Shown here: in pieces, positions 13,160 to 37,366 of the stretch
Position numbering within the stretch: the first letter of the stretch is position 1
How the letters are laid out: each line of letters starts with the position of its first letter
Assembly (NCBI GenBank): GCA_964400015.1
Contig: CAYNRR010000002.1
Coordinates: forward strand, 38,751 to 102,750
DNA from: an uncultured Eubacteriales bacterium
Lineage (GTDB): Bacteria; Bacillota; Clostridia; TANB77; UBA1234
DNA: 64,000 nt
Direction: 5' to 3'
Position numbers and translations under genes: made by a program
Notes under the pieces: generated by a model
The model's input: only the letters and a program-made list of their open reading frames with translations
What the model was told of the DNA's origin: nothing
Databases searched by the model: none

Positions 13160-13244
13160 GTCATCATCACTCGCTTTCTTACATCATTCTTACTTTTCTG
13201 TTACGATTATATTACAAGCCCATACAAATATCAAACCCTTTTTT

Positions 13245-13372
13245 CGACACATCGGGGACGTCCGTTAAATGTCTCAAAATTTCCATTATTTAGGAAATTA
13301 CGGTTTTTTCAAGGACAAATTTACAAATTTTGTTAAAAATGAGACATTTAACGGACGTCCCCGGTGTGTCAG
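13245..13372. repeat. palindromic intergenic element, copy A. The terminal inverted repeats are CGACACATCGGGGACGTCCGTTAAATGTCTCA and its reverse complement. The internal 62 nt begin AAATTTCCA
   Basis: Perfect inverted repeat of about 30 bp read directly from the sequence. The right arm contains the TGA stop of addA. Confidence 0.85.
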
Positions 13373-16300
13373 ACGATGATTGCTTGGTTTAGGTGGAATG
13401 AGTAGATGTATGTTTGTGTTACTTGTTTGCCGGTTATTTGTGTTAGTGCTTTTTTGTAGTATTCTAGTTGCTTTGCGTAGCGTTCTATGAATTCTTGCGG
13501 TGTGTTTAGTTTGTCACTTTTGTAGTCTACTATTGTTATTCCTTCTGGGGTTTCGTAGTATAAGTCTATGATTCCTTGCACCATTATAGTATCGTCTTTT
13601 GATTTTTCTTCGAATTTGAATATATCTTTTGCTGATATTGATAGATTGAATGGTACTTCTCTATATATTTTTTTGCTGTTTTTTATTTGCGTATATAGTG
13701 AACTGTTTATAAATGTTTGTAGGTCTTTTCTTAGTTTTTCTTTTGTTATTCCCTCTTCTAGATCGTTTAGTAATTTTTCTATGTTTTCTCCCTCTTCATT
13801 TTTCCCTTTTGTAGTATAGTCGAGTCTTTCCATTTTACTATGTAATAGTGTACCGTATGATGCTCCTACTATTGCGTTTTCTTTTATAAAGTTTGGAGTT
13901 TCTACGTTTCTTATTTTTTGTATTAGCGATGGCTCTTGTAAGTTGTGTAGACGTTTTAGTTCGCTTACTGAGAGTTTTGATGGTATTTTTGTTGATAGTG
14001 AGTATGAGTATTTCCAATCGAAACGTTGCTGTATGAATGGTGTTTCGTCTTTTTCTATTGTTTGCGTATTTTCTATTAGTGCTTTGGGTATTTCCCAGCT
14101 TCCTGATATAAATGTTTCAATATCTTCAAATGCTGCTTCTGCGTAGCTCCATGGTTTTACTAACCAATCGTTTTTAGTTGATAGTACTGCATTACATATC
14201 CAATCTGAAAATGATTTTGCTGAAGATATTCTATATTTGCTCATTGGTGCTTCGTATTCTATCATTTTCTTTTCTACGTTTTGCATTAGTGATGTTATGA
14301 TAAGTTTTTCTTTTGCTCTTGTCATTGCTACATATAGAATTCTCATTTCTTCTGCAATCATTTCTTGTTGATTTTGCAGACTAAGTGCAAGCTTTGGTAC
14401 ACTTTCATATGTTATGCGAAGTTTTGGGTCTACTATATCGAATCCGAATCCTAAGTCTTGATGCATTATAACTGGTTTCTTTAGATCCATATCATTAAAT
14501 TTTTTACTTGTTCCTGAGATAAATACTATAGGAAATTCCAATCCTTTACTCTTATGAATACTCATTATTCTAACTACGTCATCATTTTCGGAAATTTGAC
14601 TTGGTGCATCCATATCGCCTGAACTTATTTTTACGTTATCTATAAAGGTTAAGAAGTTATATAATCCTTTAAAGCTTGATCTTTCAAAGTCTGTTGCTTT
14701 TTTTAGTAAGACTTTTAAATTGCTTTGTCTTGCGTCTCCATTTGGAAGTAATGAGACAAAATAATAGTAATTGGTATCATCATACAAATATGATATGAAT
14801 TCATCTATTACCATGTAACGTGATTTTTGTCTCCATATGTTTAAACGCTCTATAAAATTTTTTGATTTTTCGTTGCCTTGTGATGCTGCTATTAGCATTG
14901 CGTCGTAAAATGATGATTTTTTATTGTATAGTCGTATTTGAGTTAATTCATTTACGTCGAAATTGCCTATTGGAGATTTTAAAACTGCTAGTAATGGTAT
15001 GTCTTGATAAGGGTTGTCTATTATTTTTAATAGTGATAAAAATATTTGGACTTCTGTATTATCAAAGTAACCTGATTTTATGTCTGCATATGTTGGTATA
15101 TTTCTTTTTGCTAGTTCTTCACTAAATGTTTCTGTGATTCCTTTAGTTGCACGTAATAGTATTACGATATCTGAATATTTTGCTTTTCTTTTTGATTTGG
15201 TATGTTTGTCGTATACTTCAAAGTTCCCAACTAGTTCTTCTATTCTCTTAGCCACAACTCGGGCTTCTAATTGCAGTTTTTCTTCTATCTCATCTTCAAA
15301 TTCTTCGATTTCTTCTTCTGTATTTTTCTTTTCAATTAAATGTAATTCTGCTGGTTCACCATCATATTCATAATATGTTGCTCCATATTTTAGATATTCT
15401 ATTTCGTCATATTCGATTTCTGCTACATCACTATGCATGATGTTTTTGAATATAAAGTTTACTTGTTCTATTATGTTTTCATTGCTTCTAAAGTTTTTAA
15501 ATAATAGAATTTTGTTTTCTGGTGAAGAGGGATCTTTTTGCTCACGTGTTGCGTAGTTTGTGTATGTATGATATTTTTCAAGAAATAATTCTGGACGTGC
15601 TTGTCTGAATTTGTAGATGCTTTGTTTTACATCTCCAACCATGAAAACATTTCCTTTAGAAATTTTATTTAAAATAGTTTCTTGTATAAGGTTGCTATCT
15701 TGATATTCATCAATTAGAATTTCTTCATATTTGTTTTTGAAGTCTTCTAATACATCTTCATTCTTTTCAAATAATTGTAAGCAAAGATGCTCGATATCGC
15801 TGAAGTCTAACAAGTTTTTATCCGATTTTTTCTTTTTGAATCTTTCGTCGAATAGATATATTATCTTTTTTATTCCATTCGCATGGGCGAACGCTTGTTT
15901 TAAATCTTCTAATATTTCTGCCGATGAAGATATAAATATTTTGTCTCTTAAATATTCACCTACTAGTTTTTTCATTTTGTCTCGAGTAGATTTTACTTGT
16001 ATTTTTAATTCTTCATCCATTTTAGGTGCATTTTTTAAAGAAGAAAAACTTATATATTTGAATTCGTTATAGTAATCGTCCCATGTTAGTTTATTTTTAC
16101 GAATTGCGTCTAACTTAAATATATCGTCTTGTATTGTTGCTAAATAATTTTTTGAATTTGGATCTTCTAAAAGGTCAAGTTCTATGTCTTTTAATTCTTT
16201 TGAAATCTCTTCTATTAGTTCTCTAGTATATTTAAGAATTTTCTTTCCCCATATAGTTTTTGAAAAATCGCTTTCCTCGACATTGTACATATTACATTTT

Positions 16301-16869
16301 TCTTCGAGCCATTCTAATGGATTTGGACAGCTTTGTATGAAACGATAAATTGATAAAATTAAGTTTATTAAGCCTTCATCGGACTTGTTGCTTGAGTACG
16401 CATCCATTACATCTATTATTTCTTCATCATTAGACTCATATAATTCTTCAAGGACTTCGTCAATTGCTTCTAATTTTAAAAGCTCGCCTTCTGTTGAATC
16501 GACAATTTTAAAGTTTGGATCAATATCTAGTTTATAGAAATAGTCTTTTATAGATTTTTTACAGAATGCATCGATTGTCATTATGCTTGATCTATTCAAA
16601 TATAAAATTTGTTTTTGTAACGAATGATTGGTACTAATTTCTTCATATAGTCGACTACGTATACGTTCTTTCATTTCACTTGCTGCTGCATTCGTAAATG
16701 TAACAATAAGCATTTTGTCTATATCAACACCATCATCAATAATTTTACGGATAATCCTTTCTACAAGAACAGCTGTTTTACCACTACCTGCACCTGCAGC
16801 TACGAGCGTTTTAGAATTACGAATGTCTATTGCGCTTTTTTGCTCCGGTGTCCATTTTACATCTCCCAT
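13369..16869 (-). CDS. addA: ATP-dependent helicase/nuclease subunit A (AddA)
   Basis: UvrD-type Walker A motif AAGAGSGKT at the N-terminus. The protein is 1166 aa and lies downstream of addB. Confidence 0.9.
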   Translation of the reverse strand: MGDVKWTPEQKSAIDIRNSKTLVAAGAGSGKTAVLVERIIRKIIDDGVDIDKMLIVTFTNAAASEMKERIRSRLYEEISTNHSLQKQILYLNRSSIMTIDAFCKKSIKDYFYKLDIDPNFKIVDSTEGELLKLEAIDEVLEELYESNDEEIIDVMDAYSSNKSDEGLINLILSIYRFIQSCPNPLEWLEEKCNMYNVEESDFSKTIWGKKILKYTRELIEEISKELKDIELDLLEDPNSKNYLATIQDDIFKLDAIRKNKLTWDDYYNEFKYISFSSLKNAPKMDEELKIQVKSTRDKMKKLVGEYLRDKIFISSSAEILEDLKQAFAHANGIKKIIYLFDERFKKKKSDKNLLDFSDIEHLCLQLFEKNEDVLEDFKNKYEEILIDEYQDSNLIQETILNKISKGNVFMVGDVKQSIYKFRQARPELFLEKYHTYTNYATREQKDPSSPENKILLFKNFRSNENIIEQVNFIFKNIMHSDVAEIEYDEIEYLKYGATYYEYDGEPAELHLIEKKNTEEEIEEFEDEIEEKLQLEARVVAKRIEELVGNFEVYDKHTKSKRKAKYSDIVILLRATKGITETFSEELAKRNIPTYADIKSGYFDNTEVQIFLSLLKIIDNPYQDIPLLAVLKSPIGNFDVNELTQIRLYNKKSSFYDAMLIAASQGNEKSKNFIERLNIWRQKSRYMVIDEFISYLYDDTNYYYFVSLLPNGDARQSNLKVLLKKATDFERSSFKGLYNFLTFIDNVKISSGDMDAPSQISENDDVVRIMSIHKSKGLEFPIVFISGTSKKFNDMDLKKPVIMHQDLGFGFDIVDPKLRITYESVPKLALSLQNQQEMIAEEMRILYVAMTRAKEKLIITSLMQNVEKKMIEYEAPMSKYRISSAKSFSDWICNAVLSTKNDWLVKPWSYAEAAFEDIETFISGSWEIPKALIENTQTIEKDETPFIQQRFDWKYSYSLSTKIPSKLSVSELKRLHNLQEPSLIQKIRNVETPNFIKENAIVGASYGTLLHSKMERLDYTTKGKNEEGENIEKLLNDLEEGITKEKLRKDLQTFINSSLYTQIKNSKKIYREVPFNLSISAKDIFKFEEKSKDDTIMVQGIIDLYYETPEGITIVDYKSDKLNTPQEFIERYAKQLEYYKKALTQITGKQVTQTYIYSFHLNQAIIV

Positions 16870-16884
16870 AAAATTTACTCCTTA

Positions 16885-19800
16885 TTAAAATAATTTTGTT
16901 TGTTCAAATACTGTTTCATTATCTAAAGTTGATATTTGCTTGAATCGATTGCCTAGTTCTCTATCAAAATTGCATATTTCTTTATATGCACAGTAGTCAC
17001 ATGGCGTTTCTTTTTTTATTCGTGCTGGTTTGATTTCTACATTACCTGATAATATTTCTTCTGCAAATTTTTTTAGAATTGATTTTGTATGTTTACAAAG
17101 TCCTTTTAACTCATCTAGTGTTGCTGTTGGCACTTTTGAGTAGGTGCCATCTCTTTTTAGAGATAAGTTTAGATTTTTTGATTCTTTTACCATTTCTGTG
17201 TCCATGGCTTGCACTAGACGTACATCGGATAATATAATTCCATCCATTTTTAGTTTTTCACGGATTTGTTCTTCTACTTCTTCTGGTGTTAATTTCTTTT
17301 TTGATTTTACTATTGGATCATCTAGCTTTAAGTATAATGCACCACCAGGAATAAATTCTTCTTGCTTGTTTTCTGTTGCTACATCTAGATACGTTATTAG
17401 CTGTAATTGTAAGCCATAATATACTTTTGATAGATTTATTGATTTTGCTGATGATTTATAGTCTATTATTCGAATGTATTTTCCGTCTTCTGTTTTAGCT
17501 ATGTCCATTCGGTCTATTTTGCCGTTTAAAACAAGTTTATTGCCTTCATCAAGTTCTATCTCGATTGGAGGATAATTTCCTTTTTCGCCGAATGTCATCT
17601 CACTGCCTAAAACATCAAATTCACTGTTTTTTATATGCAATGTTATAATCCATAGAACTCTTTTTACAACACGTTTTAATTTTATACTTAAAAATTTTAA
17701 TCTGTTGTTACTAGAAAAAATATTGTACCTGCGTTCTGAAAGTAATGAGTCGATTATGTTTGAAGCTATAGTATCTATTTCGCCTTTAGTTATATCTCTC
17801 CATTTTAAATTGTTTCTTTCTAAGTGTTTTGAAAATTTGTCTAATATATCATGCATAAACACTCCAACGTCTGGGGTTTCTAGTTTGTATAATTTACGTT
17901 CTTTTACATTTAAACCATATTGCAAATAAAATTTAAATGGACATGAAGCGTATGATTCCATTTTTGATACACTTGATTTTATTGTATTTCCGTATAATTC
18001 TGTTGCGTTTCTTTTTTCAAGTCTTCCTACGTTGTTGTTGAAGCTTAATCCTGATTTTATTAGAGCAATGAATTCAGGATTGTTTTTTTCAAACCATTTA
18101 TATACAAAGTTCCATTTTGGATTTATAGTTTCTTTTTCTTTTTTTTCACGAATTGTATTTGCCAAATGTACGAATGTTGATTTCTTCGTATTTATTAACT
18201 CTTCCCATTCAAAAGTTTGCGTTAAATAATCGTTTTCTTTTAATTTAGGGAATATATTTTTTAATTCATTTATTACTGAAGAGGGACGTAATGTTGTCCC
18301 CTCTTCATCTGTTATCGGATATGATATATGTAACTCGCATTTAGGAACTGTCAATGTTTTATATATATTAAAGTTTTCTTCTAACAATAACATTTTTGTG
18401 TCTTTAGCTATTTCAAGGTTATTTTCTAATAGCAAGTTACGTTCGTTATCGTTTAAAAAACCTTCTGTGGTATATTGCATTGGGAAAAGTCCATCGTTGA
18501 CTCCTACAATATAAAGAATATCTATGTGAGAATTGCGAGAACGTGCAATATCTCCTATTATAACTTCGTCTTTACTTGTTGGAATAAGTCCTATTTGCTG
18601 AGTTAATATTCCTTCTTTTAAAATTGATTGATATTTATCAAAGGAAACGTTTTCATCGCCCATTGTGTTTACTAGTTCATCAAGTAAATTAACAAATATA
18701 TTCCAAACTTGTACATATGCATTTGCAAACATTATGTCTGAACTTAAAATATCCTCTTTTGAATTTATTTCTTCTAATAAGTTTTTTATATTCTCTTCTA
18801 CATTTATTTTTATTAGAAAATCATATAATGCACGTGTTATATCTCGCACCGTTTTTTTGCCGGTTAATTCGTTTTTAAATTCAAATATAGGAGTGATGAT
18901 TTGTGCACGTATACTATTTATTTGTTCGTTAACTTCGTCAGTATCATAATGCCATTCTTCTAGCCATTTAGAACCTTTTATCCCGTATTTTAAAACGTAA
19001 TTTTCTATTCGGTCTATATCATTTACATCTTCGATATTCGATAATCCAGTTTTTAGATACGTTATGATTGAATCAGTCTGATAATTCTTACTGCATATTT
19101 CTAATAATGACATTACTAGACAAATAAGTGGTTGAAGTGATAATTCCGATTTTGTATCTAAGAAATATGGAATATTGTATCTTTCAAATATCATTTTGAA
19201 AATTGATTCATATGTTTCAACGTTTCGCGATGCAATCATTATGTTGTTATAGCGATATCCTTCGTCACGAACTTTTTTTAGAATGTCACATGCAATCTTT
19301 TCGACTTCTGTATATAAATTAGGCATTATGCTTAAATCAACAAATTTTGTTTCTTCTTCGTATTTTTCTGCAGGAAATTTGTTAAAATTCTTTTCGAGAT
19401 GGGATAACTCAGCGTTTAAAAATCTTCTTGGTGTTTCAAGATAAACGACATCAACATTCGTAAATTTCTTTATTTTATCAATAGTTTTTTTATTTAGTAA
19501 GAATAACTCGCTATTTTCTTCATCATTTGAAATCGCAATTGTTACGTCTGCAATTTTATTTAGTGCTTTTATAACTTCTAATTCTTGAGGAGTAAATCCA
19601 TCAAACCCATCAATCCATATTTTCGCTCCTGAAATTATCTTTGATTTTGATATGTAATTCATGACAATTTTCAAATCATCATCGCTATCTATAAACTTGC
19701 CATCTATACGCTTTTCATATTCTGCATATATATACGCAAGTTCTCTTAGCTTATTAGATAATCTTTCGTTTTGAGTATTTGTATTAGATAACATTTCCGG

Positions 19801-20196
19801 AGTGACATTGTATCTTTTGAATTCAGAAATCAAGTCGCACACTGTAGTTACAAGTCCTGGTTTTCTATCTACTCCTTTTAAAAGGATTAACTCTTTTTCT
19901 AAATCTTTCATTATCGAATATACGATCATTGCTTTCGCAGATTTTGATATGGTAGCACTTTTGTAACCAAATTCATTATATATACGATAACATAAACGTT
20001 TAAATGACATTACGTCAACTTCCAAGATACCTCCTCTTCCTATTACGTTTGAGATATCATATTCGGCTGTCAACGAAAATTGTTCTGGTACAATATATAT
20101 AAGAGAACCCTCATATTCATCTATAAGGTTTTCTTTAATTTCATTCATACAATAAACGCTCTTTCCAGAGCCAGCTCGACCTAAAACAAGTTTCAT
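16885..20196 (-). CDS. addB: ATP-dependent helicase/nuclease subunit B (AddB)
   Basis: GRAGSGKS Walker A motif. A C-terminal cysteine cluster CDYCAYKEIC is typical of AddB Fe-S nucleases. 1103 aa. Confidence 0.9.
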   Translation of the reverse strand: MKLVLGRAGSGKSVYCMNEIKENLIDEYEGSLIYIVPEQFSLTAEYDISNVIGRGGILEVDVMSFKRLCYRIYNEFGYKSATISKSAKAMIVYSIMKDLEKELILLKGVDRKPGLVTTVCDLISEFKRYNVTPEMLSNTNTQNERLSNKLRELAYIYAEYEKRIDGKFIDSDDDLKIVMNYISKSKIISGAKIWIDGFDGFTPQELEVIKALNKIADVTIAISNDEENSELFLLNKKTIDKIKKFTNVDVVYLETPRRFLNAELSHLEKNFNKFPAEKYEEETKFVDLSIMPNLYTEVEKIACDILKKVRDEGYRYNNIMIASRNVETYESIFKMIFERYNIPYFLDTKSELSLQPLICLVMSLLEICSKNYQTDSIITYLKTGLSNIEDVNDIDRIENYVLKYGIKGSKWLEEWHYDTDEVNEQINSIRAQIITPIFEFKNELTGKKTVRDITRALYDFLIKINVEENIKNLLEEINSKEDILSSDIMFANAYVQVWNIFVNLLDELVNTMGDENVSFDKYQSILKEGILTQQIGLIPTSKDEVIIGDIARSRNSHIDILYIVGVNDGLFPMQYTTEGFLNDNERNLLLENNLEIAKDTKMLLLEENFNIYKTLTVPKCELHISYPITDEEGTTLRPSSVINELKNIFPKLKENDYLTQTFEWEELINTKKSTFVHLANTIREKKEKETINPKWNFVYKWFEKNNPEFIALIKSGLSFNNNVGRLEKRNATELYGNTIKSSVSKMESYASCPFKFYLQYGLNVKERKLYKLETPDVGVFMHDILDKFSKHLERNNLKWRDITKGEIDTIASNIIDSLLSERRYNIFSSNNRLKFLSIKLKRVVKRVLWIITLHIKNSEFDVLGSEMTFGEKGNYPPIEIELDEGNKLVLNGKIDRMDIAKTEDGKYIRIIDYKSSAKSINLSKVYYGLQLQLITYLDVATENKQEEFIPGGALYLKLDDPIVKSKKKLTPEEVEEQIREKLKMDGIILSDVRLVQAMDTEMVKESKNLNLSLKRDGTYSKVPTATLDELKGLCKHTKSILKKFAEEILSGNVEIKPARIKKETPCDYCAYKEICNFDRELGNRFKQISTLDNETVFEQTKLF

Positions 20197-20300
20197 AGTT
20201 TCGCTCCTTTCTATTCAAAATACTATCATACTTTTTTATGAAGAGCAATGGAGAGTGACATTGAGTAATAATCCCATTGCCACTCTCCACAGTAATTTTT

Positions 20301-20549
20301 TTAATTCTGAGTTAGAAATTTTTCCTTTGCGCAATCAATTTTATTTTGCTCTGCATATTCGGTTTTGTACCAGCCTCTTTCAACCATCAAATTATAAATT
20401 TTATTTTGAATATTTAGCGATTCGTTTAAAGCTTCTTTAAAAGCATTATGAACCTCTGCAGTAGACGATTCCAATACACCATGAAGATATAAATCGCTAA
20501 CACCTTTCATTAAAAGCAATTCTTTTTCCATCAATTCTCTATCTTCCAT
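20301..20549 (-). CDS. Coat F-domain (spore coat protein F-like) small protein
   Basis: ...QNKIYNLMVERGWY... resembles the Coat_F motif ...RGWY. Confidence 0.5.
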   Translation of the reverse strand: MEDRELMEKELLLMKGVSDLYLHGVLESSTAEVHNAFKEALNESLNIQNKIYNLMVERGWYKTEYAEQNKIDCAKEKFLTQN

Positions 20550-20563
20550 AGATTTTACACTCC

Positions 20564-20746
20564 CTATAACAAATTAAAAAATTTTTCATATATTTCAGAA
20601 TGTTTTTGTTCCAATTCTGTAATATACATAGCTAACGTTGCGTCTTTTAAAGTTTTTCCAGTTTTCTTACTACTATCTTGCAAAAATTTTTCATGTCCTA
20701 ACGCATCTTCAACATATAAAAGTTCTTTGCCTGTCATTTTTATCAC
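20564..20746 (-). CDS. small protein, probably a partner of the Coat F-like gene
   Basis: Adjacent to and co-directional with the Coat F-like gene. Its own RBS, GGGAGTG, lies upstream of the next ORF. Confidence 0.35.
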   Translation of the reverse strand: MIKMTGKELLYVEDALGHEKFLQDSSKKTGKTLKDATLAMYITELEQKHSEIYEKFFNLL

Positions 20747-20822
20747 CTCTTAAAGTAATATTTCCGTACTTACGGATTTTTATTCAAAATTTCTTTATGA
20801 AGAGGGAGAATATGATATAATT

Positions 20823-21851: not shown

Positions 21852-21920
21852 GGATTATTCCTCATTGGCTATATTATTGTCTTCACTATTTCCTTCAGTA
21901 TTTTTATTCTCTTCGATTTG

Positions 21921-22475: not shown

Positions 22476-22488
22476 TAGAATTCCTCCA

Positions 22489-23241
22489 TTACTTTTTCTT
22501 ATTTAAACGTTGTCTTAAAGCTTCAAATACAACAATTCCTCCAGATACACTTGCATTTAAGGATGTTATTTTTCCCATCATTGGTATTTTAACTAGGAAA
22601 TCACAGTTTTTCATAGTCAATGTACCCATTCCTCTTCCTTCGCTACCAATCACGATTGCTATAGGTCCTGTCAAATCTTGTTCAGTATAAAGTGTTTTAG
22701 CAGAACCATCTGTTCCTACAATCCATACGCCTCTATCTTGTAATTCTTTAATTGTTTCGTTTATATTATTTACTCTAACTATTGGAACATATTCAGTTGC
22801 ACCTACTGCTGTTTTAGCAACAACTTCAGTTACTCCAACAGCACGTCTTTTTGGAATTATTACACCATGGCATCCAGCACATTCTGCTGTTCTTATAAGA
22901 GCACCTAAATTATGTGGATCCTCAATTTCATCAGCAATCATAATAAATGGATCTTCATTTCTTTCACTTGCAAGTGCAAAAATATCGTCTATAGTTTTAT
23001 ACTCAACTGCTGAAACAAAGGCAATTACGCCTTGATGATGTTTTGTATCAGAAAGCATATCTAATTTTGACTTTTCAACCTCTGAAATCAAATTGTTATT
23101 CTTTTTAGCAAGTTTGATAATTTCATTTATAGAACCTTGTCTTTCACCTTTTTGTATAAATACCTTATTTACAGGCTTTCCCGACTTTAAAAGTTCGATA
23201 ACAGCATTTCTTCCCTCTACTTTAAAATCTTCACTTTTCAT
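22489..23241 (-). CDS. rlmB: TrmH-family (SpoU) 23S rRNA 2'-O-methyltransferase RlmB
   Basis: SpoU methylase motifs (...IVIGSEGRGM..., ...SLNASVSGGIVVFE...). The start was moved to the ATG at 23241, which has an AAGGAG RBS. The ORF-track extension back to 23283 runs into repeat element B. Confidence 0.85.
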   Translation of the reverse strand: MKSEDFKVEGRNAVIELLKSGKPVNKVFIQKGERQGSINEIIKLAKKNNNLISEVEKSKLDMLSDTKHHQGVIAFVSAVEYKTIDDIFALASERNEDPFIMIADEIEDPHNLGALIRTAECAGCHGVIIPKRRAVGVTEVVAKTAVGATEYVPIVRVNNINETIKELQDRGVWIVGTDGSAKTLYTEQDLTGPIAIVIGSEGRGMGTLTMKNCDFLVKIPMMGKITSLNASVSGGIVVFEALRQRLNKKK

Positions 23242-23254
23242 CTCAATTCTCCTT

Positions 23255-23337
23255 TTCTTAGGGACGTCCGTTAAATGTCTCACTTTTGCCTTTTACTGGA
23301 AATTTTGGAACATTTAACGGACGTCCCTCGTGTGTCA
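23255..23337. repeat. palindromic intergenic element, copy B. Its arms are AGGGACGTCCGTTAAATGTCTCA and the reverse complement. Its core is inverted relative to copies A and C
   Basis: Inverted repeat read directly from the sequence. The right arm ...CGTGTGTCA supplies the TGA stop of lepA. The left arm abuts the rlmB RBS. Confidence 0.85.
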
Positions 23338-25143: not shown

Positions 25144-25264
25144 TATATAAGCCCTCCTTTAACCTCATAATAATATACTAAAAACGGCAAAAAGTAAACT
25201 AAAAACATTATTCTTGCATATTCTTATTTAATATTTTAGAATGTTTTTTGGAGGTTGATGCTTT

Positions 25265-25918: not shown

Positions 25919-25970
25919 AATTTAAAAGCTCGAAGTTGTGTATACTCTACACTCTCGAGCTTTTTCTTAT

Positions 25971-30269: not shown

Positions 30270-30406
30270 AAAAACCTCCTATAAATAAAGCATTATTACT
30301 ATTTTACAAGCACCTGTCGAAAATTGCAAGTTTTGGTCGCTTTTCATACAAAATTCACAATTTGTTGTATAAAAAACAGCCTAGCTCTATGGCTAGACTG
30401 TCATTT

Positions 30407-31690
30407 CTATTTTATTACAATTACGGGTCTATAATAATAGCTAGATGAAGAAGTGACCGAATCGAAATCAAAGTAACTAGATTTAAATAATCTAACAATT
30501 ACAGATTGATTTGCAATTGGGAAAGTAGCAGTGTATCTATCCCAGTTAGTCTCAGTCATTGCATCTCCATATTTATCTGCAATCCCAGTTGGCGAATTTT
30601 CATCATTTTGATATAAGTCTGCATAATCCAGCCCGGCTAGTATTGTATTTTTTTCATTACCCGCAGCGACAAATTCATCTTTTAATGTGAAATCTATTTC
30701 ATCAAGACAATTATATGCATACATCAAATATATGGCAGCTGAATATTCCATGTTACTCATAAGATGACTTTCAAATTTCGCATTATTGCCAACAAGATCT
30801 TTAGAATTATTAACTGCATTCGCTAATGTAGTGCTTGATGCTGATGTATTCATTGCAATCCATATCCCAGACTTCTCTACACCACCTGTTTTAAAAGCAG
30901 GATGTACTTTATACCCAGTTGGTAAAGATTCATTATTAACCATGTAGTCTGTTTCCTCCCTTAAGAAAACTATTTTCATGGCTGATGATGGAACTTGTGT
31001 AAAAGGTCTTAAAGGATCGTTTAAGCCATTATAAAACTCTTGGATTGAGTATGCATATCTAGGTATCCATACAAAAACAAGACTTTCGTCAGCAACACTT
31101 CCGTCGCCATCAGAATCATATTTCATTTTTGCAAATGAAGGAGCTGCTGCGTTGTAATTATACCAAGTATCTGTATATATATCCTCTACTAAGCCTGACA
31201 TATCACTTTTTACAGCATACATTCCATCAAGCAAAACAGGTCTATTTATATTATTTGCTTCATCAAAACTAGTTCCATATGTGTTTTTTTCTAAAGATTT
31301 TTCTATCGTAAATTCTTCGTTTGCATATAAATCTTTCATATCTTCGCCATCATACATTTTTAAAACATATCTTGTTATCTTTTTGGTTGGTTCTACTGTA
31401 AAAGTTTTTTCCACAATAACAGGATAATCTTCATCGTAATATTCTTTTAAATCTAAAGAAATGTAATCTTGCTCTGTTAAGACAGCGTCTCCTGATATGA
31501 AATCAAGAAATTCATCACCTTTTCTAAGTGAATTACATATGGTAGCAAGCTTATCTGTTGCTGATTTTTTTCGAGCATCTTTTATAACGTTTACGCCGTT
31601 ATATGTTGTAATAGAAGTAATGATTAGCATTACGATTACAGTTATAGCAAGCACTAAAACAGATATTCCTCTATCACTTTTCATTTGCAC
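30407..31690 (-). CDS. hypothetical N-terminally membrane-anchored protein, 427 aa
   Basis: One N-terminal TM helix (ISVLVLAITVIVMLIIT). No recognisable catalytic motifs. A terminator hairpin lies at 30375-30400. Confidence 0.5.
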   Translation of the reverse strand: MQMKSDRGISVLVLAITVIVMLIITSITTYNGVNVIKDARKKSATDKLATICNSLRKGDEFLDFISGDAVLTEQDYISLDLKEYYDEDYPVIVEKTFTVEPTKKITRYVLKMYDGEDMKDLYANEEFTIEKSLEKNTYGTSFDEANNINRPVLLDGMYAVKSDMSGLVEDIYTDTWYNYNAAAPSFAKMKYDSDGDGSVADESLVFVWIPRYAYSIQEFYNGLNDPLRPFTQVPSSAMKIVFLREETDYMVNNESLPTGYKVHPAFKTGGVEKSGIWIAMNTSASSTTLANAVNNSKDLVGNNAKFESHLMSNMEYSAAIYLMYAYNCLDEIDFTLKDEFVAAGNEKNTILAGLDYADLYQNDENSPTGIADKYGDAMTETNWDRYTATFPIANQSVIVRLFKSSYFDFDSVTSSSSYYYRPVIVIK

Positions 31691-31710
31691 TCCTCCACTC
31701 TTTTGTGAAA

Positions 31711-32640
31711 TTATATTTTATCATTGCAACCTAATACATCTACAATTTTATGTTTTACCATTTCTCTAATTGCATCTCTTCCTGCACCTAAATAACTTCT
31801 TGGGTCAAATTCGCCAGGATTTGTTACAAAAGTTTCTCTAATTGCACTTGTCATAGCAAGTCTTAAATCTGTATCTATGTTTATTTTGCATACACCATGT
31901 CTAGCAGCTTCTCTAAGCATATCTTCTGGAACACCTTTTGCACCTGGAATATTTCCTCCAAATTTATTGCATTTTTCTACGAATTCTGGAATAACCGTTG
32001 AAGCACCATGTAATACAATTGGGTAACCTGGCATTGCAGCTGTTATTTTGTCTAATATATCAAATCTTAGTTTTGGTTCTCCCTTGAATTTGTATGCACC
32101 ATGACTTGTTCCGATTGCAATTGCTAAAGAATCACATCCTGTTCTTTCTACAAACTCAACTGCTTGATCTGGATCTGTGTATGAACTGTCTTCTGCACTA
32201 ACTTTTACATCATCTTCTACACCTGCAAGTTTTCCAAGTTCTGCTTCTACTACAACACCGTGTTCATGTGCATAATCTACTACTTTTCTTGTTAACTCTA
32301 TATTTTCTTCAAAGTTATATTTTGAACCATCTATCATAACTGATGTAAAGCCACCATCTATACATTTTTTACAAATATCAAAATCTGCACCATGATCTAG
32401 ATGAATTGCTATTGGCAAATCTGTGTCTTCTACTGCTGCTTGAATTAAATGAATCAAATAATTATGTTTAGCATATTTTCTAGCACCTGCTGAAACTTGT
32501 AATATAAGTGGACTGTTTACTTCCTTTGCTGCTTCTGTTATACCTTGAATTATTTCCATATTATTTACATTAAAGGCACCTATTGCATAGCCACCTTTAC
32601 TAGCTTTTTCAAACATTTCTTTTGTCGTTACTATACCCAT
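31711..32640 (-). CDS. fba: class II fructose/tagatose-bisphosphate aldolase
   Basis: ...GGYAIGAFNVNN...ILQVS.GA... class II aldolase motifs; 309 aa. Confidence 0.85.
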   Translation of the reverse strand: MGIVTTKEMFEKASKGGYAIGAFNVNNMEIIQGITEAAKEVNSPLILQVSAGARKYAKHNYLIHLIQAAVEDTDLPIAIHLDHGADFDICKKCIDGGFTSVMIDGSKYNFEENIELTRKVVDYAHEHGVVVEAELGKLAGVEDDVKVSAEDSSYTDPDQAVEFVERTGCDSLAIAIGTSHGAYKFKGEPKLRFDILDKITAAMPGYPIVLHGASTVIPEFVEKCNKFGGNIPGAKGVPEDMLREAARHGVCKINIDTDLRLAMTSAIRETFVTNPGEFDPRSYLGAGRDAIREMVKHKIVDVLGCNDKI

Positions 32641-32817
32641 AACTAAAACACTCCTTTAAAATTTCAAATTTTCTATATAGACTTTATCACATTTTGTATT
32701 CATTGGACAACTTATTTCATTTATTTTTTTGTTTATGAATATTATTTTCTTTTTTGAAAATAATATTAGTGTACAATTTAATTATTGTACCTAGTTTTTA
32801 TTTTGGAGTGATTTAAA

Positions 32818-32979
32818 ATGGCTAAAATAAAATGTAGTGTTTGCTCATGCGCTTATAATTTAGCAGAAAAAAGTGAGTGTACTTTAAATGCAATACAAGT
32901 GTGTCCTTGTAAAAATCATAAGAAAGGTACGCCTGAAGATGAAACATGTTGCAGCTCTTATATTGAGAATCATAAATAA
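32818..32979 (+). CDS. DUF1540-like small Cys-rich protein (53 aa: MAKIKCSVCSCAYNLAEKSECTLNAIQVCPCKNHKK...); not in the ORF track
   Basis: An ATG with a GGAGTGA RBS. The KCSV.SC.YN....C.A..I.V cysteine pattern is typical of DUF1540. Confidence 0.5.
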   Translation: MAKIKCSVCSCAYNLAEKSECTLNAIQVCPCKNHKKGTPEDETCCSSYIENHK

Positions 32980-33081
32980 TAGTTTTTATGATTAACTATA
33001 GTTTACTTTTTAAATTGAAAAGTCAGTTTAATTTGCGAACAAAAAATACACCTTGAAAAAGGTGTATTTTTATTTTTATAT

Positions 33082-34308
33082 TCATTTTATTTTATAAAAA
33101 GCTTTATAAAGTTTTATTGCTGTTTCTGGTGATTCGTCTCCTTCTTTGTTTTTTATTGGGGCGAATTCTTCGTCTTTTTCTCCTCTGTATACAATTATAT
33201 CATCAGACATACTATATCCATCAAATATAAAAGCCTCATATTTGTATGTTTGCATTTCTTCTTGAATTCCGAATTCATTTAATCCTACATTTTTCTTTAA
33301 AGCTGCATGAATAGGCAATTTTTCTGTTACTATTTTTTCTAGCAAATCTATTCCAAAATAATTACAGCCATAATGCGCATCGCCATATATCAAATCGCCC
33401 TCTTCATTTCGAGCTTCAAGTAGTTCTCTCGGTGTTTCAGTATATTCAATAACTCGTGGCTTTCCATTGACTCTACAAAATACTCCCCACTTACCTTCTG
33501 GTGATGGTTTCATAAAAGATCTTGAAAGAAGAGATATATTTTTTTCTTCCATTAAAGCAACCGGAATAGGATCAATCATCTGAATCAAAATATTGTCTAT
33601 ATTTCCTATAGCTAAATATTTGATTTTATTAAGTTTCATGTGATCGATTATTCCTCTATTACCTAAAGCATTAAATATTCCACCGTTTCCGTCTGGTGCC
33701 ATAAATATAGTTGCTTTATCTTTCATTACAATCTTTCCATTTGTATCTAATAATGGAAGTTCACCTTGCTTGAAAAATATTACGTGATTTTTATCGTATC
33801 CGAAAAAATTATTTTGAGTAAAGAAGTCTTGCGTTTCTTCATCATTTTGCTCGCTAGTCATTATATACCAATATATTAAAACTCCATATTCTTCGTATGC
33901 TTTTTTTAATTTCATTGCATTTGTTTCAAATATTGAAGTTGGTTTATCCAAATCTAACATCAACGTGCCTTTTGGTCCACTATGTCCTAGTCTAGAGCCT
34001 TGACCACCTGCCATAGAGCAGATCGCAAGTTCTCCATTTTTTATTTTCTTATCTCCGATTTTTTTATATTTTTCTAAGTCTATTTTTTTCTTTTCAGTTG
34101 CTGGAACATTAGTGATTTTGTTTTCACCTATATTAAATTCATGTTTTTCATGAAATAACTCGTTTATATATCCGAAATCAATCTTTTTAATTTGTTCAAT
34201 CAAAAGATTTTTTTGTGCATCAGATAATTCGTCGTAATATTTAAACACGTGTTCTTGATTATATTTTTCTAAAACTTTCAAAATTTCGTTATAAGATTCC
34301 ATATGCAA
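33082..34308 (-). CDS. UDPGP-family (UTP-hexose-1-phosphate / UDP-GlcNAc pyrophosphorylase-like) nucleotidyltransferase
   Basis: ...ICSMAGGQGSRLG... nucleotide-binding loop; 408 aa. Confidence 0.6.
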   Translation of the reverse strand: MHMESYNEILKVLEKYNQEHVFKYYDELSDAQKNLLIEQIKKIDFGYINELFHEKHEFNIGENKITNVPATEKKKIDLEKYKKIGDKKIKNGELAICSMAGGQGSRLGHSGPKGTLMLDLDKPTSIFETNAMKLKKAYEEYGVLIYWYIMTSEQNDEETQDFFTQNNFFGYDKNHVIFFKQGELPLLDTNGKIVMKDKATIFMAPDGNGGIFNALGNRGIIDHMKLNKIKYLAIGNIDNILIQMIDPIPVALMEEKNISLLSRSFMKPSPEGKWGVFCRVNGKPRVIEYTETPRELLEARNEEGDLIYGDAHYGCNYFGIDLLEKIVTEKLPIHAALKKNVGLNEFGIQEEMQTYKYEAFIFDGYSMSDDIIVYRGEKDEEFAPIKNKEGDESPETAIKLYKAFYKIK

Positions 34309-34323
34309 ACCTCCAATATAAAT

Positions 34324-36024
34324 TTACATTTTTTCTGGTGATTTTATTCCAAGTAATGCAAGACCATTTTTAATTGTTGTTCCAACTGCTTTTGTAAGTG
34401 CAACTCTAGCCTTCTTTGTTTCTTCATCATCGCAAATAATTTGATGTTCGTTATAGAATCTACTAAAGCTTTGTGCCAAGTCAATTAAATGTCTAGAAAT
34501 AATTGAAGGTTCATTTTTATTTACTGCATTTAAAACAATATCAGGATATTCAGACAAGTTTTTAATAACTTCTATTGCTTCTTTATCTAATAGTTTATCT
34601 GTATTTACATTACTTAAATCTACATTTGCATTTTTCATTATACTGTTTGTTCTAACGTATGTATATTGAAGATATGGTCCTGTTTCACCTGTGAAATTTA
34701 ATAGTTGATTCCAATCAAATATTTCATCTTTTATTCTGTTGTTAGCCAAATCATTGAATATAATAGCTCCAACACCAACCATTTTAGCAACTTCTTCTTT
34801 ATTCTCAAGTGTTGGATTCTTTTCTTCTATTATTTGAAGAGACTTTTCAATTGATTCATTTAAGATTTCTTCAAGTGTAGGAAGCTTTCCACCTTTACGT
34901 GAACCAATTTTTTCACCATTTTCATCTAATACTAAACCAAAAGGAATATGCTCGCACACAGCTGCATATTTTTCATATCCCATAAGTTCAAGTGTTTTAA
35001 ATACTTGCTTAAAGTGAAGCGATTGTTCACTGCCAACCACATATAAAGCTTTATCAAAATTATAATTATCAATTCTATACAAAAGTGCGGCTAAATCTCT
35101 AGTAGCATAAATTGTTGTACCAGCAGAAGTTATTATTATACATGGTGGCATATTTTCTTCTGGCATTTCGACAACTTTTGCACCTTCACTATCTTTCAAT
35201 ATACCTTTTGCTTCAAGTTCTCTTACGACTCTTTCCATCTTGTCATTATAGAAAGCTTCACCGTTAAAAGAATCAAATTCACTACCAAGTAAAGCATAGA
35301 CTTTATTATAATTTTCTAAACTAATATCTATAATCCATTTCCAAAGCTTAGTTGTTTCTTCATCATGCTTTTCTAATCTGATTAAGACATCACGAGCTTT
35401 ATCAGTCATTGTAGGATCTTCTTTTTCTAATTTGTTAAATCTTACATATATCGCCAATATTGAATAAATAGCGTTGTCATCAAAAGTATATTCGTCTTTC
35501 CACATTTCATAACCAGCTATTGATTTAGAAATACCCATTCCCCAGTCTCCAAGATGATTTATACCAACCACATTATATCCAATAGCTTTATACATCTTGT
35601 AAAGTGCTCCACCTATAACAGTTGTACGTAAATGTCCAATATGAAAAGGTTTTGCAATGTTAGGTGACGAATAATCAATGACAACAGTTTTTCCGTTGCC
35701 AATGTCACTTTTTCCATAATCTTCGCCCTTTGCTAAAACATCGTTTAAAACAGTTTTTACAAATTCAGACTTGTTAATAAAAAAGTTAAGATATCCACCA
35801 ACAACATCAATTTTAGAAATAACTTCATCTTCCGATAATTTTTCTTTTAATTCATTTGCAATAATTGGTGGCGCTTTTCTTAGTTCTTTAGCCAATTTAA
35901 AACAAGGGAACGCAAAATCACCAAGTTCTGTGTTTGGTGGTATTTCAATATATTCTTCGAGAGAAGAAACGTCCACATTTGTAACAGCGTTTATTCTTTT
36001 TGCAATTTCGTTTTTATAATTCAT
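34324..36024 (-). CDS. argS: arginine--tRNA ligase
   Basis: The class I HIGH motif region ...SPNIAKPFHIGHLRTTVIG... and the C-terminal DALK/anticodon-binding domain end in ...KM; 566 aa. Confidence 0.93.
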   Translation of the reverse strand: MNYKNEIAKRINAVTNVDVSSLEEYIEIPPNTELGDFAFPCFKLAKELRKAPPIIANELKEKLSEDEVISKIDVVGGYLNFFINKSEFVKTVLNDVLAKGEDYGKSDIGNGKTVVIDYSSPNIAKPFHIGHLRTTVIGGALYKMYKAIGYNVVGINHLGDWGMGISKSIAGYEMWKDEYTFDDNAIYSILAIYVRFNKLEKEDPTMTDKARDVLIRLEKHDEETTKLWKWIIDISLENYNKVYALLGSEFDSFNGEAFYNDKMERVVRELEAKGILKDSEGAKVVEMPEENMPPCIIITSAGTTIYATRDLAALLYRIDNYNFDKALYVVGSEQSLHFKQVFKTLELMGYEKYAAVCEHIPFGLVLDENGEKIGSRKGGKLPTLEEILNESIEKSLQIIEEKNPTLENKEEVAKMVGVGAIIFNDLANNRIKDEIFDWNQLLNFTGETGPYLQYTYVRTNSIMKNANVDLSNVNTDKLLDKEAIEVIKNLSEYPDIVLNAVNKNEPSIISRHLIDLAQSFSRFYNEHQIICDDEETKKARVALTKAVGTTIKNGLALLGIKSPEKM

Positions 36025-37252
36025 TCGATAGCACTCCTTTTAACCAATTTATTCGTTCTAATCTTAATTTTTCCTTTATTATATTATAATCCATGTCTTT
36101 TGGATATAATTTCGCATTTATTTTTTTCATCATTTCATTGCCAATCTGTGCAAAATATATTTCTGTATCTTTAGTATTATCAGCGTTTGCCAATATTTCC
36201 ATTCCGTCAAGTGTTAAAGCAGACTTGCTTATACGTTCTATAAAATCTACTTTTTTAGGTATACGCATATTATAAAAAATACCCGCACGCATATGTTCTT
36301 CGCAGGCTGTAATACCAGCTTTTCTATATTTATTAGGAAGCTTTAGCCTATCACATAATTTGTTAACAAGCTGCACACCAGCTTCTTCATGACCTATATG
36401 GCTCGGTCTTTTTTCAATAGGAGTTAGTGCTTTACCTAAATCATGCACCAATCCAGCAAAAATCATATACGGCACATGTGTTTTAATAGACATTTTATCT
36501 ATAACATTCATAGTATGATTATAAGCATCACCTTCAGGATGATACTCCTCTGGTTGTATCACTCCAATCAAATCAAAAACTTCTTTAAAATGAATATCTA
36601 AAACATCAGCTTTTTTTAGCGTATCAAAAAACAAACTTGGCTTTTGTGCTTTAAGAGCTTTATCAAGTTCAACAAAAACTCTTTCTGGCGAAAGAAAATC
36701 AAGTTCATCTCTAGTTTTCTTCATGAGTTCAATTGTATAATTATCTACTTTAAAACCAAATTGACTAGCAAATCTAGCAACACGATACGTTCTAAGAGGG
36801 TCTTCAACAAAAGCATCAGAAGTAGCTCTTATAACTTTTTCATCGATATCATTTTTTCCATTAAACGGATCGATAATTTCTTTAGAAAGAACATCAATAG
36901 CAATACTATTTAAAGTAATATCTCGTCTTTTCAAATCTTCAATAATCGAAATACTTTTGTTGCAAATCATTTCAAAACCTTTGTGCCCAGTAGACCTTTT
37001 AACTTCTTGTCTAGCAAAAGCAAACTCACATCCATGATAATCAAAAACAGGGAAACACTTTCCTCTAGCCTTTGCATCTGGAACAAGCTTTTGAAAATCT
37101 TTAATATCAATACCTGTGACACAAAAATCAAAATCATGAGGCACTCTATTCATCAAGAAATCACGAACAGCACCACCAACCAAATACAATCTGCCACCAG
37201 CATCAGAAATTTTGCTAGCCAGCTCAAACACCCAGTCCACACAATCACCCAT
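36014..37252 (-). CDS. cca: CCA-adding tRNA nucleotidyltransferase with an HD domain
   Basis: ...GGRLYLVGGAVRDFLM... polymerase-beta head, followed by an HD domain ...GLVHDLGK... Confidence 0.9.
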   Translation of the reverse strand: MGDCVDWVFELASKISDAGGRLYLVGGAVRDFLMNRVPHDFDFCVTGIDIKDFQKLVPDAKARGKCFPVFDYHGCEFAFARQEVKRSTGHKGFEMICNKSISIIEDLKRRDITLNSIAIDVLSKEIIDPFNGKNDIDEKVIRATSDAFVEDPLRTYRVARFASQFGFKVDNYTIELMKKTRDELDFLSPERVFVELDKALKAQKPSLFFDTLKKADVLDIHFKEVFDLIGVIQPEEYHPEGDAYNHTMNVIDKMSIKTHVPYMIFAGLVHDLGKALTPIEKRPSHIGHEEAGVQLVNKLCDRLKLPNKYRKAGITACEEHMRAGIFYNMRIPKKVDFIERISKSALTLDGMEILANADNTKDTEIYFAQIGNEMMKKINAKLYPKDMDYNIIKEKLRLERINWLKGVLSNEL

Positions 37253-37284
37253 TGCAAATTATACCACACCCCTCCCCAAAAGTA

Positions 37285-37366
37285 AACACGAGGGACGTCC
37301 GTTAAATGTGTCAAAATTTCCAGTAAAAGGCAAAAAATGAACATTTAACGGACGTCCCTCGTGTTC
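37285..37366. repeat. palindromic intergenic element, copy C, with arms AAACACGAGGGACGTCCGTTAAATGTGTCA and the reverse complement; it lies in the divergent cca/clpE promoter region
   Basis: Inverted repeat read directly from the sequence. Its core AAATTTCCAGTAAAAGGCAAAAAAT is the reverse complement of the copy B core. Confidence 0.85.

What the first reader, a model, noticed from the sequence alone, without database searches (positions are those of the whole stretch)
13245..37366. Family of palindromic intergenic elements (GGGACGTCCGTTAAATGT arms) present in three copies, two of which donate the host gene's stop codon
Copies at 13245-13372, 23255-23337 and 37285-37366 share inverted-repeat arms of about 25-30 bp with the consensus (T)GACACACGAGGGACGTCCGTTAAATGTNTCA. 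They also share an AAATTTCCA...AAAGGCAAAA core. Copy B is inverted relative to copies A and C, as expected for a mobile MITE- or REP-like element.

In copies A and B the outer arm ...GTGTGTCA overlaps the last base pairs of addA and lepA and provides their TGA stops. Copy B also abuts the rlmB RBS, and copy C sits in the divergent cca/clpE promoter region.

When transcribed, each copy would form a hairpin with a stem of roughly 28 bp. Such a hairpin could act as an mRNA stabiliser, a terminator or attenuator, or an RNase III site. I do not recognise the element as a described Firmicute repeat family.
Basis: seen in the sequence. Interest (0 to 1): 0.65.

Follow-up and report, generated by a model that had tools for sequence, protein, structure and literature searches.

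The report
Nested-palindrome intergenic repeat family (REP/REPIN-like)
The three hairpin-forming sequences are real copies of an undescribed family of small palindromic intergenic repeats that is scattered, gained, lost and decaying in a group of uncultured gut Clostridia, so it is most likely a non-coding mobile element like the REP/REPIN repeats of Proteobacteria and not a gene-specific regulator.

Summary
GGGACGTCCGTTAAATGT occurs six times in the window, as three inverted pairs, against 0.01 expected. The pairs would fold into hairpins of -37 to -63 kcal/mol.

No Rfam family, paper, plasmid, phage or viral contig matches. The same core occurs in related uncultured Clostridia MAGs and gut metagenome contigs: at least 46 units over about 25 loci.

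Anatomy:
- Each arm is itself a stem-loop. A roughly 7-bp stem covaries around an almost invariant core of about 18 nt.
- Two inverted units with a spacer of 29-32 nt (31 in most), or 71 nt, form the doublet seen in the window.
- Singletons, decayed copies and two doublets with a small gene in the spacer also exist.
- No target-site duplication was found.

Occupancy differs between sister species:
- Site A is empty in three of the four relatives examined.
- Site B is empty in one relative and filled in another.
- Site C is filled or decayed in relatives.
- The closest relative has copies where the window has none.

The TGA stops of addA and lepA do lie in the element's terminal TGA(A/C)ACAC consensus. 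Relatives stop at the same codon, so the proteins are unchanged. Copy C lies between two divergent -35 boxes and is probably not transcribed.

Best reading: a REP/REPIN-like selfish repeat mobilised in trans. The enzyme was not found. This is a new member of a known kind, of moderate interest.

The parts
13246..13370 (.). Copy A, long form. Outer stem part 13246-13254; core 13255-13272; 71-nt A/T-rich spacer 13273-13343; inverted core 13344-13361; outer stem part 13362-13370. The addA stop TGA (minus strand) is 13369-13371.
   Evidence: The site is empty in relatives L028, L029 and L037. A decayed copy follows the addA stop in L038. The 71-nt spacer form recurs in L035.
23260..23337 (.). Copy B, short form, spacer inverted relative to A and C. 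Core 23261-23278; 31-nt spacer 23279-23309; inverted core 23310-23327; outer part TCGTGTGTCA 23328-23337, which contains the lepA stop (23335-23337, minus strand). There is no outer part on the rlmB side.
   Evidence: Empty in L014-L016. Occupied by another subfamily in L033/L034.
37277..37373 (.). Copy C, short form. Outer inverted repeat 37277-37291; core 37292-37309; 31-nt spacer 37310-37340; inverted core 37341-37358; outer inverted repeat 37359-37373.
   Evidence: The orthologous site holds an intact long-form copy in L035/L036 and decayed remnants in L030 and L031.
13206..13234 (-). mreB promoter-like site (TTGATA, 17 nt, TATAAT; 11 of 12 matches), 11 nt from the end of copy A. It is conserved in relatives that lack the element.
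37258..37286 (-). cca promoter-like site (TTTACT, 17 nt, TG-TATAAT). Its -35 hexamer overlaps the outer arm of copy C.
37371..37399 (+). Promoter-like site of the Clp ATPase gene (TTGACA, 17 nt, TAGTAT). Its -35 hexamer overlaps the last 3 nt of the outer inverted repeat of copy C.

Best explanation
The three loci are copies of a non-coding, non-autonomous repeat family with nested palindromes.

Anatomy:
- The basic unit is about 32 nt. It is a 5-9-bp stem of variable, covarying sequence enclosing an almost invariant core, (C)NN-GGGACGTCC-GTTAAA, closed by ACA/TGT.
- Two units in inverted orientation, separated by an A/T-rich spacer of 29-32 nt (31 in most; short form) or 71 nt (long form), make the doublet seen in the window.
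- As single-stranded DNA or RNA the doublet folds into one long hairpin.

Proposed mechanism:
- The family spreads and turns over in intergenic DNA of a clade of uncultured gut and rumen Clostridia.
- The core is kept constant by sequence, without compensatory change. I infer that it is the recognition or cleavage site of a trans-acting enzyme that copies the hairpin.
- The most likely enzyme is a single-strand-specific HUH/Y1-type nuclease, as for REP/REPIN with RAYT, or for the loop nick sites of rolling-circle Rep proteins.

Effects on neighbours:
- Copies survive only where they do no harm: between a stop codon and the next promoter or ribosome-binding site, or between divergent -35 boxes.
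- This explains the overlaps with the addA and lepA stops and with the cca/clpE promoters.
- Effects on neighbouring genes (a stable 3' hairpin on the addA and lepA transcripts) are probably incidental.

Shown: family membership, structure, covariation, site polymorphism, decay, and absence of target-site duplication. Inferred: mobility in trans and the type of enzyme.
For: 1. Repetition far above chance. The same core is found in two GTDB MAGs (GCA_949283575.1, eight loci; RGIG4047, two loci), in gut metagenome contigs, and in every related contig set fetched apart from L014-L016 and L029.

2. Presence/absence at orthologous sites:
- Site A is empty in L028 (AddA 83% identical), L029 and L037, although the mreB promoter is conserved.
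- Site B is empty in L014-L016.
- L028 has a copy at the addB|addA junction, where the window has only 15 nt. It also has two more copies within 14 kb.

3. All stages of decay are seen. Arms carry 1-7 mismatches, some have internal deletions (L019-L021), and collapsed remnants sit at site C in L030 and L031.

4. Unit-level stem (46 units): 81% of cells paired against 62% in shuffles; 72 cells changed on both sides against 29; covariation score 0.497 against 0.175 (0 of 500 shuffles reach it). Sliding the partner by 1-3 columns drops pairing to 22-40%.

5. In the long hairpin, the 17 core pairs show 0 compensatory changes and 13 broken cells, while the flanking pairs covary. The core is therefore constrained as sequence, not as a helix.

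6. L025 and L027 share the same asymmetric arm (GTTATTTGT opposite ACATTTAAC) at different loci, which suggests the doublet is copied as a unit.

7. No target-site duplication at any complete doublet. Singletons exist. Contigs L035 and L036 end inside the element, as expected at an assembly break in repeated DNA.

8. Neighbouring genes share no function, and units occur in both orientations relative to transcription.

9. The REPIN definition (two inverted REPs plus a spacer, mobilised by a RAYT) comes from the abstracts listed. Group 1 RAYTs occur in Clostridia (PMC5581495).
Against: - No transposase of any kind was found next to or within the roughly 360 kb held. This was a weak test: tblastn with IS200 TnpA and E. 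coli RAYT sequences recalled from memory.
- No clean filled/empty pair at strain-level divergence could be obtained, so insertion boundaries are not exact.
- Sites B and C are also occupied in other species, with near-perfect cores although lepA third codon positions are only about 65% identical. Purifying selection for a host function would also produce this.
- The exact 18-mer is found at only eight loci in GCA_949283575.1, far below classical REPIN numbers.
- A large conserved loop on a variable stem is not the classical REP anatomy.
Confidence: 0.6

Rival explanations
1. It is a host-selected DNA motif. The core GGGACGTCCGTTAAA, containing the 8-bp palindrome GGACGTCC, would be the binding site of a chromosomal protein (a nucleoid, insulator or regulatory factor). 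Copies would be kept at particular intergenic positions because they serve the host, and the hairpin potential would be secondary.
For: - The core is invariant across genomes whose lepA DNA is only 84-86% identical.
- Sites B and C are occupied in more than one species.
- Changes in the core are never compensated.
- Several copies lie 10-12 nt upstream of a -35 box: window copy C, L024 and L006.
Against: - Site A and the three L028 sites are lineage-specific.
- Orthologous copies at site C have decayed to near nothing in L030 and L031 without loss of the promoters.
- Neighbouring genes share no function.
- Copies occur after stop codons, between convergent genes and between divergent genes alike.
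- The covarying unit stems have no role in binding to double-stranded DNA.
Confidence: 0.15
2. It is a classical MITE: an internally deleted insertion sequence whose terminal inverted repeats (TGAAACACGAGGGACGTCCGTTAAATGT) are bound by a DDE transposase encoded elsewhere, inserting with a target-site duplication.
For: Long terminal inverted repeats, small size (80-125 bp), intergenic location, and site polymorphism.
Against: - No direct repeat flanks any of the complete doublets.
- The ends are ragged. One outer part is often missing, as in copy B and L007.
- True singletons with their own stem are common.
- No longer element with the same ends and a transposase gene was seen. The two long copies carry a 79-aa membrane ORF and a 125-aa ORF with no Pfam match.
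Confidence: 0.1
3. It is primarily an RNA element: a 3'-UTR or intercistronic hairpin selected as an mRNA stabiliser, an RNase III processing site or a terminator.
For: - Copies A and B are almost certainly transcribed with addA and lepA, and would form hairpins of 20-34 bp.
- The consensus scan flags a weak stem plus T-run inside the arm.
Against: - No T-tract follows the long hairpin.
- Copy C lies between two divergent -35 boxes.
- Spacer orientation flips between species at the same site.
- Singletons occur in both orientations relative to transcription.
- No Rfam family matches beyond generic hairpin scores far below the gathering thresholds.
Confidence: 0.08

Closest known systems
REP / REPIN elements with RAYT transposases (Proteobacteria; Bertels and Rainey 2011, PMC3116915; PMC3337134)
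   Same: - A short palindromic unit.
- Inverted doublets with a spacer that fold into a larger hairpin.
- Singletons as remnants.
- Strictly extragenic location, often just after genes.
- No target-site duplication.
- Long persistence, with some copies at orthologous sites.
   Different: - The host is a low-GC Clostridia lineage.
- The conserved part is an 18-nt loop on a variable stem, not a conserved stem with a 5' GTAG tag.
- No RAYT was found.
- Copy number appears to be tens per genome, not hundreds.
- Two doublets carry unrelated small genes in the spacer.
CGTC-tagged REPs (Di Nocera et al. 2013, PMC3733652)
   Same: They contain CGTC, are organised mostly as head-to-head dimers, and have no dedicated transposase known.
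   Different: By that paper's definition, CGTC is an unpaired terminal tag followed by an 8-9-bp stem that starts with A/T pairs, a 4-5-nt loop and a CCA tail. Here CGTC is internal to the conserved core, the loop is 18 nt, and there is no CCA tail. No Firmicutes are listed in that paper.
MITEs such as Correia/NEMIS, RUP and BOX
   Same: Size of about 80-150 bp, terminal inverted repeats, intergenic location, and occasional contribution of promoter or stop signals.
   Different: There is no target-site duplication, no related IS, and the unit is itself a stem-loop that also exists alone.
Nick sites of HUH Rep proteins (rolling-circle plasmids, CRESS-DNA viruses). This is recalled knowledge, not tested here.
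   Same: A conserved loop sequence presented on a stem whose sequence covaries.
   Different: Those loops are 9-13 nt and lie at a single replication origin. Here there are many chromosomal copies, and no Rep gene was seen.

Membership tests
REPIN / REP-RAYT system | A short imperfect palindromic unit (REP) able to form a stem-loop | tested here: met
   Unit stem of 7 pairs: 81% paired against 62% in shuffles, covariation 0.497 against 0.175, 0 of 500 shuffles reach it. Singleton hairpins fold with up to 16 bp of stem.
REPIN / REP-RAYT system | Two units in inverted orientation with a spacer of fixed length, plus singletons | tested here: met
   13 doublets have spacers of 29-32 nt (31 in most); a second size class has 71 nt (window A, L035). 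Searches list 11 and 19 units with no nearby partner; some of these are decayed or cargo-bearing doublets..
REPIN / REP-RAYT system | A single-copy RAYT (Y1 HUH transposase) gene flanked by the units | tested here: inconclusive
   tblastn with recalled IS200 TnpA and E. coli RAYT sequences against all DNA then held (about 280 kb) found nothing better than E=5. No whole genome of the clade could be scanned. The two genes flanked by inverted units are not transposases.
REPIN / REP-RAYT system | A conserved 5' GTAG tetranucleotide at the foot of the hairpin | tested here: not met
   No GTAG at the unit ends. The conserved part is the loop GGGACGTCCGTTAAA.
REPIN / REP-RAYT system | High copy number, restricted to extragenic space | tested here: inconclusive
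   All copies seen are extragenic. Density is 3 per 64 kb in the window and 3 per 14 kb in L028, but the exact 18-mer is found at only eight loci in MAG GCA_949283575.1.
CGTC-tagged REP | Terminal unpaired CGTC, an 8-9-bp stem starting with A/T, a 4-5-nt loop and a CCA tail | tested here: not met
   The definition was read. The unit anatomy seen does not fit it.
MITE (DDE-transposase dependent) | Target-site duplication flanking the terminal inverted repeats | tested here: not met
   No direct repeats at the ends of window A and C or of L005, L022, L024, L025 and L027. Filled and empty sites show no duplication. The pairs compared are about 85% diverged, so the boundaries are approximate.
MITE (DDE-transposase dependent) | A full-length IS with the same terminal repeats | tested here: inconclusive
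   None in the DNA held. There is no match in plasmids, phages or viral contigs. Whole genomes were not available.
Any Rfam RNA family | A score at or above the family's gathering threshold | tested here: not met
   Nothing at the elements in the gathering run. The E-value runs give only miRNA-precursor-type hairpin hits of 20-45 bits against thresholds of 44-250.

The most novel reading that the evidence does not exclude
This would be the first REPIN-like sequence population described in Clostridia, with an unusual anatomy: an invariant 18-nt loop on a covarying stem. That anatomy points to a loop-nicking HUH enzyme, or to a host protein that reads the loop. The population would be maintained for long periods at some orthologous sites, and it would be able to take up or flank small cargo genes in its spacer (L024, L028). 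In that case it would be a domesticated or symbiotic element-enzyme pair, not simple junk.
Probability: 0.25. Interest if true: 0.6.

Novelty: new member of a known kind. Interest (0 to 1): 0.4.

Why it matters
Small palindromic repeats of the REP/REPIN type are well documented in Proteobacteria but hardly at all in Firmicutes.

What this family offers:
- A family in uncultured gut Clostridia with a clearly defined unit, subfamilies and site turnover would extend the host range of such repeats.
- Its conserved loop gives a concrete handle for finding the enzyme that copies it.

Practical points:
- The elements break metagenome assemblies. Contigs L035 and L036 end inside one.
- They can mislead gene callers. 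The longest ORF for rlmB starts at a GTG inside copy B.
- They overlap stop codons and -35 boxes, so they matter for annotating this clade.

Tried and rejected
Known families and collections:
- Rfam at gathering thresholds found nothing at the elements. At E-value thresholds it gave only generic hairpin (miRNA-precursor) scores.
- A literature search by sequence string found 0 papers. A search for MITE, Clostridia, palindromic and intergenic found nothing relevant.
- blastn of copy C against plasmids and phages gave no match.
- The 18-mer has 0 hits in viral contigs. The 16-mer has 13 hits, but all are unrelated: ten are the start of a phage gene (MGRPLNKKYFG) and three are other chance matches. 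None has the unit stem.

Look-ups that failed:
- The window's own RlmB and LepA proteins are not on record in the look-up of encoding contigs, so the rest of the source genome could not be fetched.

Ideas considered and dropped:
- Integron attC site. GTTAAAT and ATTTAAC fit the GTTRRRY and RYYYAAC motifs, but they are in the wrong order and position, and there is no cassette array.
- dif/Xer site. Only a 7-nt resemblance (GTTAAAT).
- DNA uptake sequence. Copies are intergenic only and too sparse.
- An 8-bp GGACGTCC target duplication around a smaller element. Singletons carry the contiguous core, which argues against it.
- Restriction-site avoidance. GACGTC occurs 3 times outside the elements against about 4 expected.
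- CRISPR targeting. None of the 19 spacers of the window's array matches the element.
- L005's PDDEXK_2 (Rpn-like) gene as the mobiliser. It is next to an element in one case only, and there is no homologue elsewhere in the DNA held.
Full report
**1. Observation**

The 18-mer GGGACGTCCGTTAAATGT occurs six times in the 64-kb window, always as inverted pairs: 13255/13344, 23261/23310 and 37292/37341. Shuffles give a mean of 0.01 matches. The repeat finder ranks copies A and C as the two longest inverted repeats in the window.

- The spacer between the cores is 71 nt in A and 31 nt in B and C.
- Predicted hairpins are very stable: -36.6 to -62.8 kcal/mol, z-scores -8.7 to -13.6.
- The spacer of B is the reverse complement of that of C. 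A shares only the first roughly 13 nt of the spacer.
- The window has about 31% G+C, so the core is markedly G+C-rich for this genome.

**2. Not a known RNA or a known repeat**

- Rfam at gathering thresholds finds nothing at the elements.
- At permissive thresholds only miRNA-precursor models score, far below their cut-offs, which is what any long hairpin does.
- The sequence is in no paper of the library, no plasmid or phage record and no viral contig. The 16-mer hits in viral contigs are unrelated, most of them the start of a phage gene.

**3. A dispersed family in a clade of uncultured Clostridia**

- A scan of one genome per species found the exact 18-mer in two MAGs: 'uncultured Eubacteriales bacterium' GCA_949283575.1 (eight loci on five contigs) and 'Clostridia bacterium RGIG4047' from roe-deer caecum (two loci). 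Three further hits in G+C-rich genomes are chance matches.
- Metagenome contigs gave ten more loci.
- Contigs of sister species, fetched through LepA, AddA and Cca homologues, gave further copies.
- The window's genome is not in the species collection. Its closest relatives have AddA 83% and Cca 75% identical, and lepA DNA 84-86% identical.

**4. Anatomy**

I aligned 46 units. Each arm is itself a stem-loop:

- an outer stem part ending in ...ACA;
- two or three variable bases;
- the invariant GGGACGTCCGTTAAA;
- then TGT plus bases complementary to the outer part.

The stem sequence differs between subfamilies but stays complementary. Examples are CCGGACA/TGTCCGG, TGTCCCA/TGGGACA, TGTCACA/TGTGACA, GGTGCACA/TGTGCACC, GAGCA/TGCTC, TCGTCC/GGACGA and GAAACA/TGTTTC.

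Formal counts for the unit stem:

| Measure | Observed | Shuffled mean |
|---|---|---|
| Cells forming a standard pair | 81% | 62% |
| Cells changed on both sides | 72 | 29 |
| Covariation score | 0.497 | 0.175 |

None of the 500 shuffles reaches the observed value for any of these three measures. Sliding the 3' partner by 1-3 columns drops pairing to 22-40%.

In the long hairpin of the doublets the picture is different. The 17 core pairs show no compensatory change and 13 broken cells, while the outer and inner flanking pairs covary. The core is therefore conserved as a sequence and the flanks as a helix.

Arrangements seen:

- 13 doublets have spacers of 29-32 nt, 31 in most.
- A second size class has a 71-nt spacer (window A; site C in L035).
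- There are true singletons.
- There are doublets with one decayed or partly deleted arm.
- Two doublets have a spacer holding a small gene with its own promoter and terminator: a 125-aa ORF in L024 and a 79-aa membrane ORF in L028. Neither has a Pfam match.

When oriented alike, the spacers share a loose consensus of a T-run followed by G-Y-M ... TGGAAATTT. The element therefore has a polarity even though the arms are symmetric.

**5. Turnover at orthologous sites**

| Site | Window | Relatives |
|---|---|---|
| A (addA\|mreB) | filled, long form | empty in L028, L029, L037, with the mreB promoter conserved; L038 has a decayed copy right after its addA stop, in different synteny |
| B (lepA\|rlmB) | filled, short form | empty in L014-L016 (GCA_949283575.1 species); filled in L033/L034 by another subfamily, in the opposite spacer orientation |
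| C (clpE<>cca) | filled, short form | intact long-form copy in the opposite orientation in L035/L036; short degenerate palindromes at the same place in L030 and L031 |
| addB\|addA | empty (15 nt) | filled in L028, with one arm carrying five mismatches; L028 has two more copies within 14 kb |

lepA third codon positions are only 60-66% identical between these genomes. The spacers at site B have diverged to near-random similarity, yet the cores differ by only one or two bases. Three explanations remain open: repeated insertion at permissive hot spots, homogenisation between copies, or selection on the core. I cannot separate them with the data available.

No direct repeat flanks any complete copy. 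L025 and L027 share the same asymmetric arm at different loci, as expected if a doublet is copied whole. Contigs L035 and L036 end inside the element.

**6. The stop-codon claim**

The outer consensus of the main subfamily is TGA(A/C)ACACNA-GGGACG, so TGA is part of the element. In A and B this TGA is in frame and is the stop of addA and lepA.

Relatives without the element stop at the same codon:

- TAG in L028 for addA, whose tail aligns codon for codon with the window's;
- TAA in L015 for lepA.

In L033 the lepA stop is TAG, immediately before the element. LepA is 602 aa in all these genomes. The element therefore replaced or abutted the stop without changing the protein.

The intergenic gaps in the empty sites between co-directional genes are very short: 15 nt at addB|addA in the window, 18 nt from the addA stop to the mreB -35 in L028, and 21 nt at lepA|rlmB in L015. 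Almost any tolerated insertion there must touch a stop, a ribosome-binding site or a -35 box.

The loss of the basic N-terminal extension of RlmB in the window is a separate in-frame deletion.

**7. Function**

- Copy C lies between the -35-like hexamers of two divergent promoters, so it is probably not transcribed.
- No T-tract follows the long hairpins.
- Orientation flips between species.
- Singletons occur in either orientation relative to transcription.
- Neighbouring genes are functionally unrelated.

A gene-specific regulatory role, at the RNA or DNA level, is therefore unlikely to explain the family. Hairpins on the addA and lepA transcripts may still have incidental effects.

**8. Mechanism and classification**

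The combination is that of REP/REPIN elements as defined in the abstracts: a palindromic unit, inverted doublets of fixed spacing, singletons, extragenic location, no target-site duplication, decay and persistence.

Two defining features are not met or not shown:

- There is no GTAG tag.
- No RAYT was found. The test was weak: recalled query sequences against the DNA then held, about 280 kb.

The CGTC-REP definition is not met. A DDE-type MITE is disfavoured by the lack of duplications and of a parent IS.

An invariant loop on a covarying stem recalls the nick sites of HUH Rep proteins (recalled knowledge, not tested here). It fits mobilisation through single-stranded DNA. That step is inference.

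Group 1 RAYTs do occur in Clostridia (PMC5581495), so a RAYT-like partner is plausible.

**9. Verdict**

This is a real, previously undescribed family of nested-palindrome intergenic repeats. It works most probably like REP/REPIN, but its membership in that system is unproven. It is a new member of a known kind, of moderate interest.

Noticed in passing
window 2675-9834: A type II-A CRISPR-Cas locus. The array has 20 copies of the 36-nt repeat GTTTCATTACTACCTAAAATAACATACCTCTAAAAC with 30-nt spacers (2675-3966). Next to it on the minus strand are csn2 (4031-4711), cas1 (5018-5752) and cas9 (5857-9834). No spacer matches the palindromic element or any fetched locus.
   Followed up: partly
window 1075-1164 (-): Rfam tRNA match of 36.5 bits over 90 nt. 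ARAGORN does not call it. It lies in a gene-poor, A/T-rich stretch upstream of the CRISPR array.
   Followed up: no
window 23190-23232 compared with L015 4212-4430: RlmB of the window lacks the basic N-terminal extension of about 68 aa found in the sister species (shorter in L033). This looks like an in-frame deletion between two DFK-coding repeats, independent of the element. The longest ORF (GTG at 23283) wrongly starts inside copy B.
   Followed up: partly
L024 249-881; L028 1862-2357: Two doublets whose spacer (597 and 460 nt) holds a small gene with its own promoter and terminator. The ORFs are 125 aa (higher G+C than the flanks, judged by eye, not computed) and 79 aa (membrane protein by eye). 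Neither has a Pfam match. They may be cargo capture or an insertion into the spacer.
   Followed up: partly
L005 670-1596: A PDDEXK_2 (Rpn-like 'PD-(D/E)XK nuclease family transposase', E=1.5e-40) gene ends 62 nt before an intact doublet. This is a single case, and no homologue occurs in the other DNA held.
   Followed up: partly
L035 101-122: Tandem duplication of the element's outer part (CGGTGTTTCG CCGGTGTTTCG) beside the site-C copy of the closest relative. It may be the trace of an older copy at the same site.
   Followed up: no
L015 9956-10921; L029 199-1164; L037 4226-5194; L038 1745-2725: Relatives carry an AcrVA2-like (PF26125) gene and a serpin gene between scpB and addB. These are absent from the corresponding stretch of the window.
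   Followed up: no
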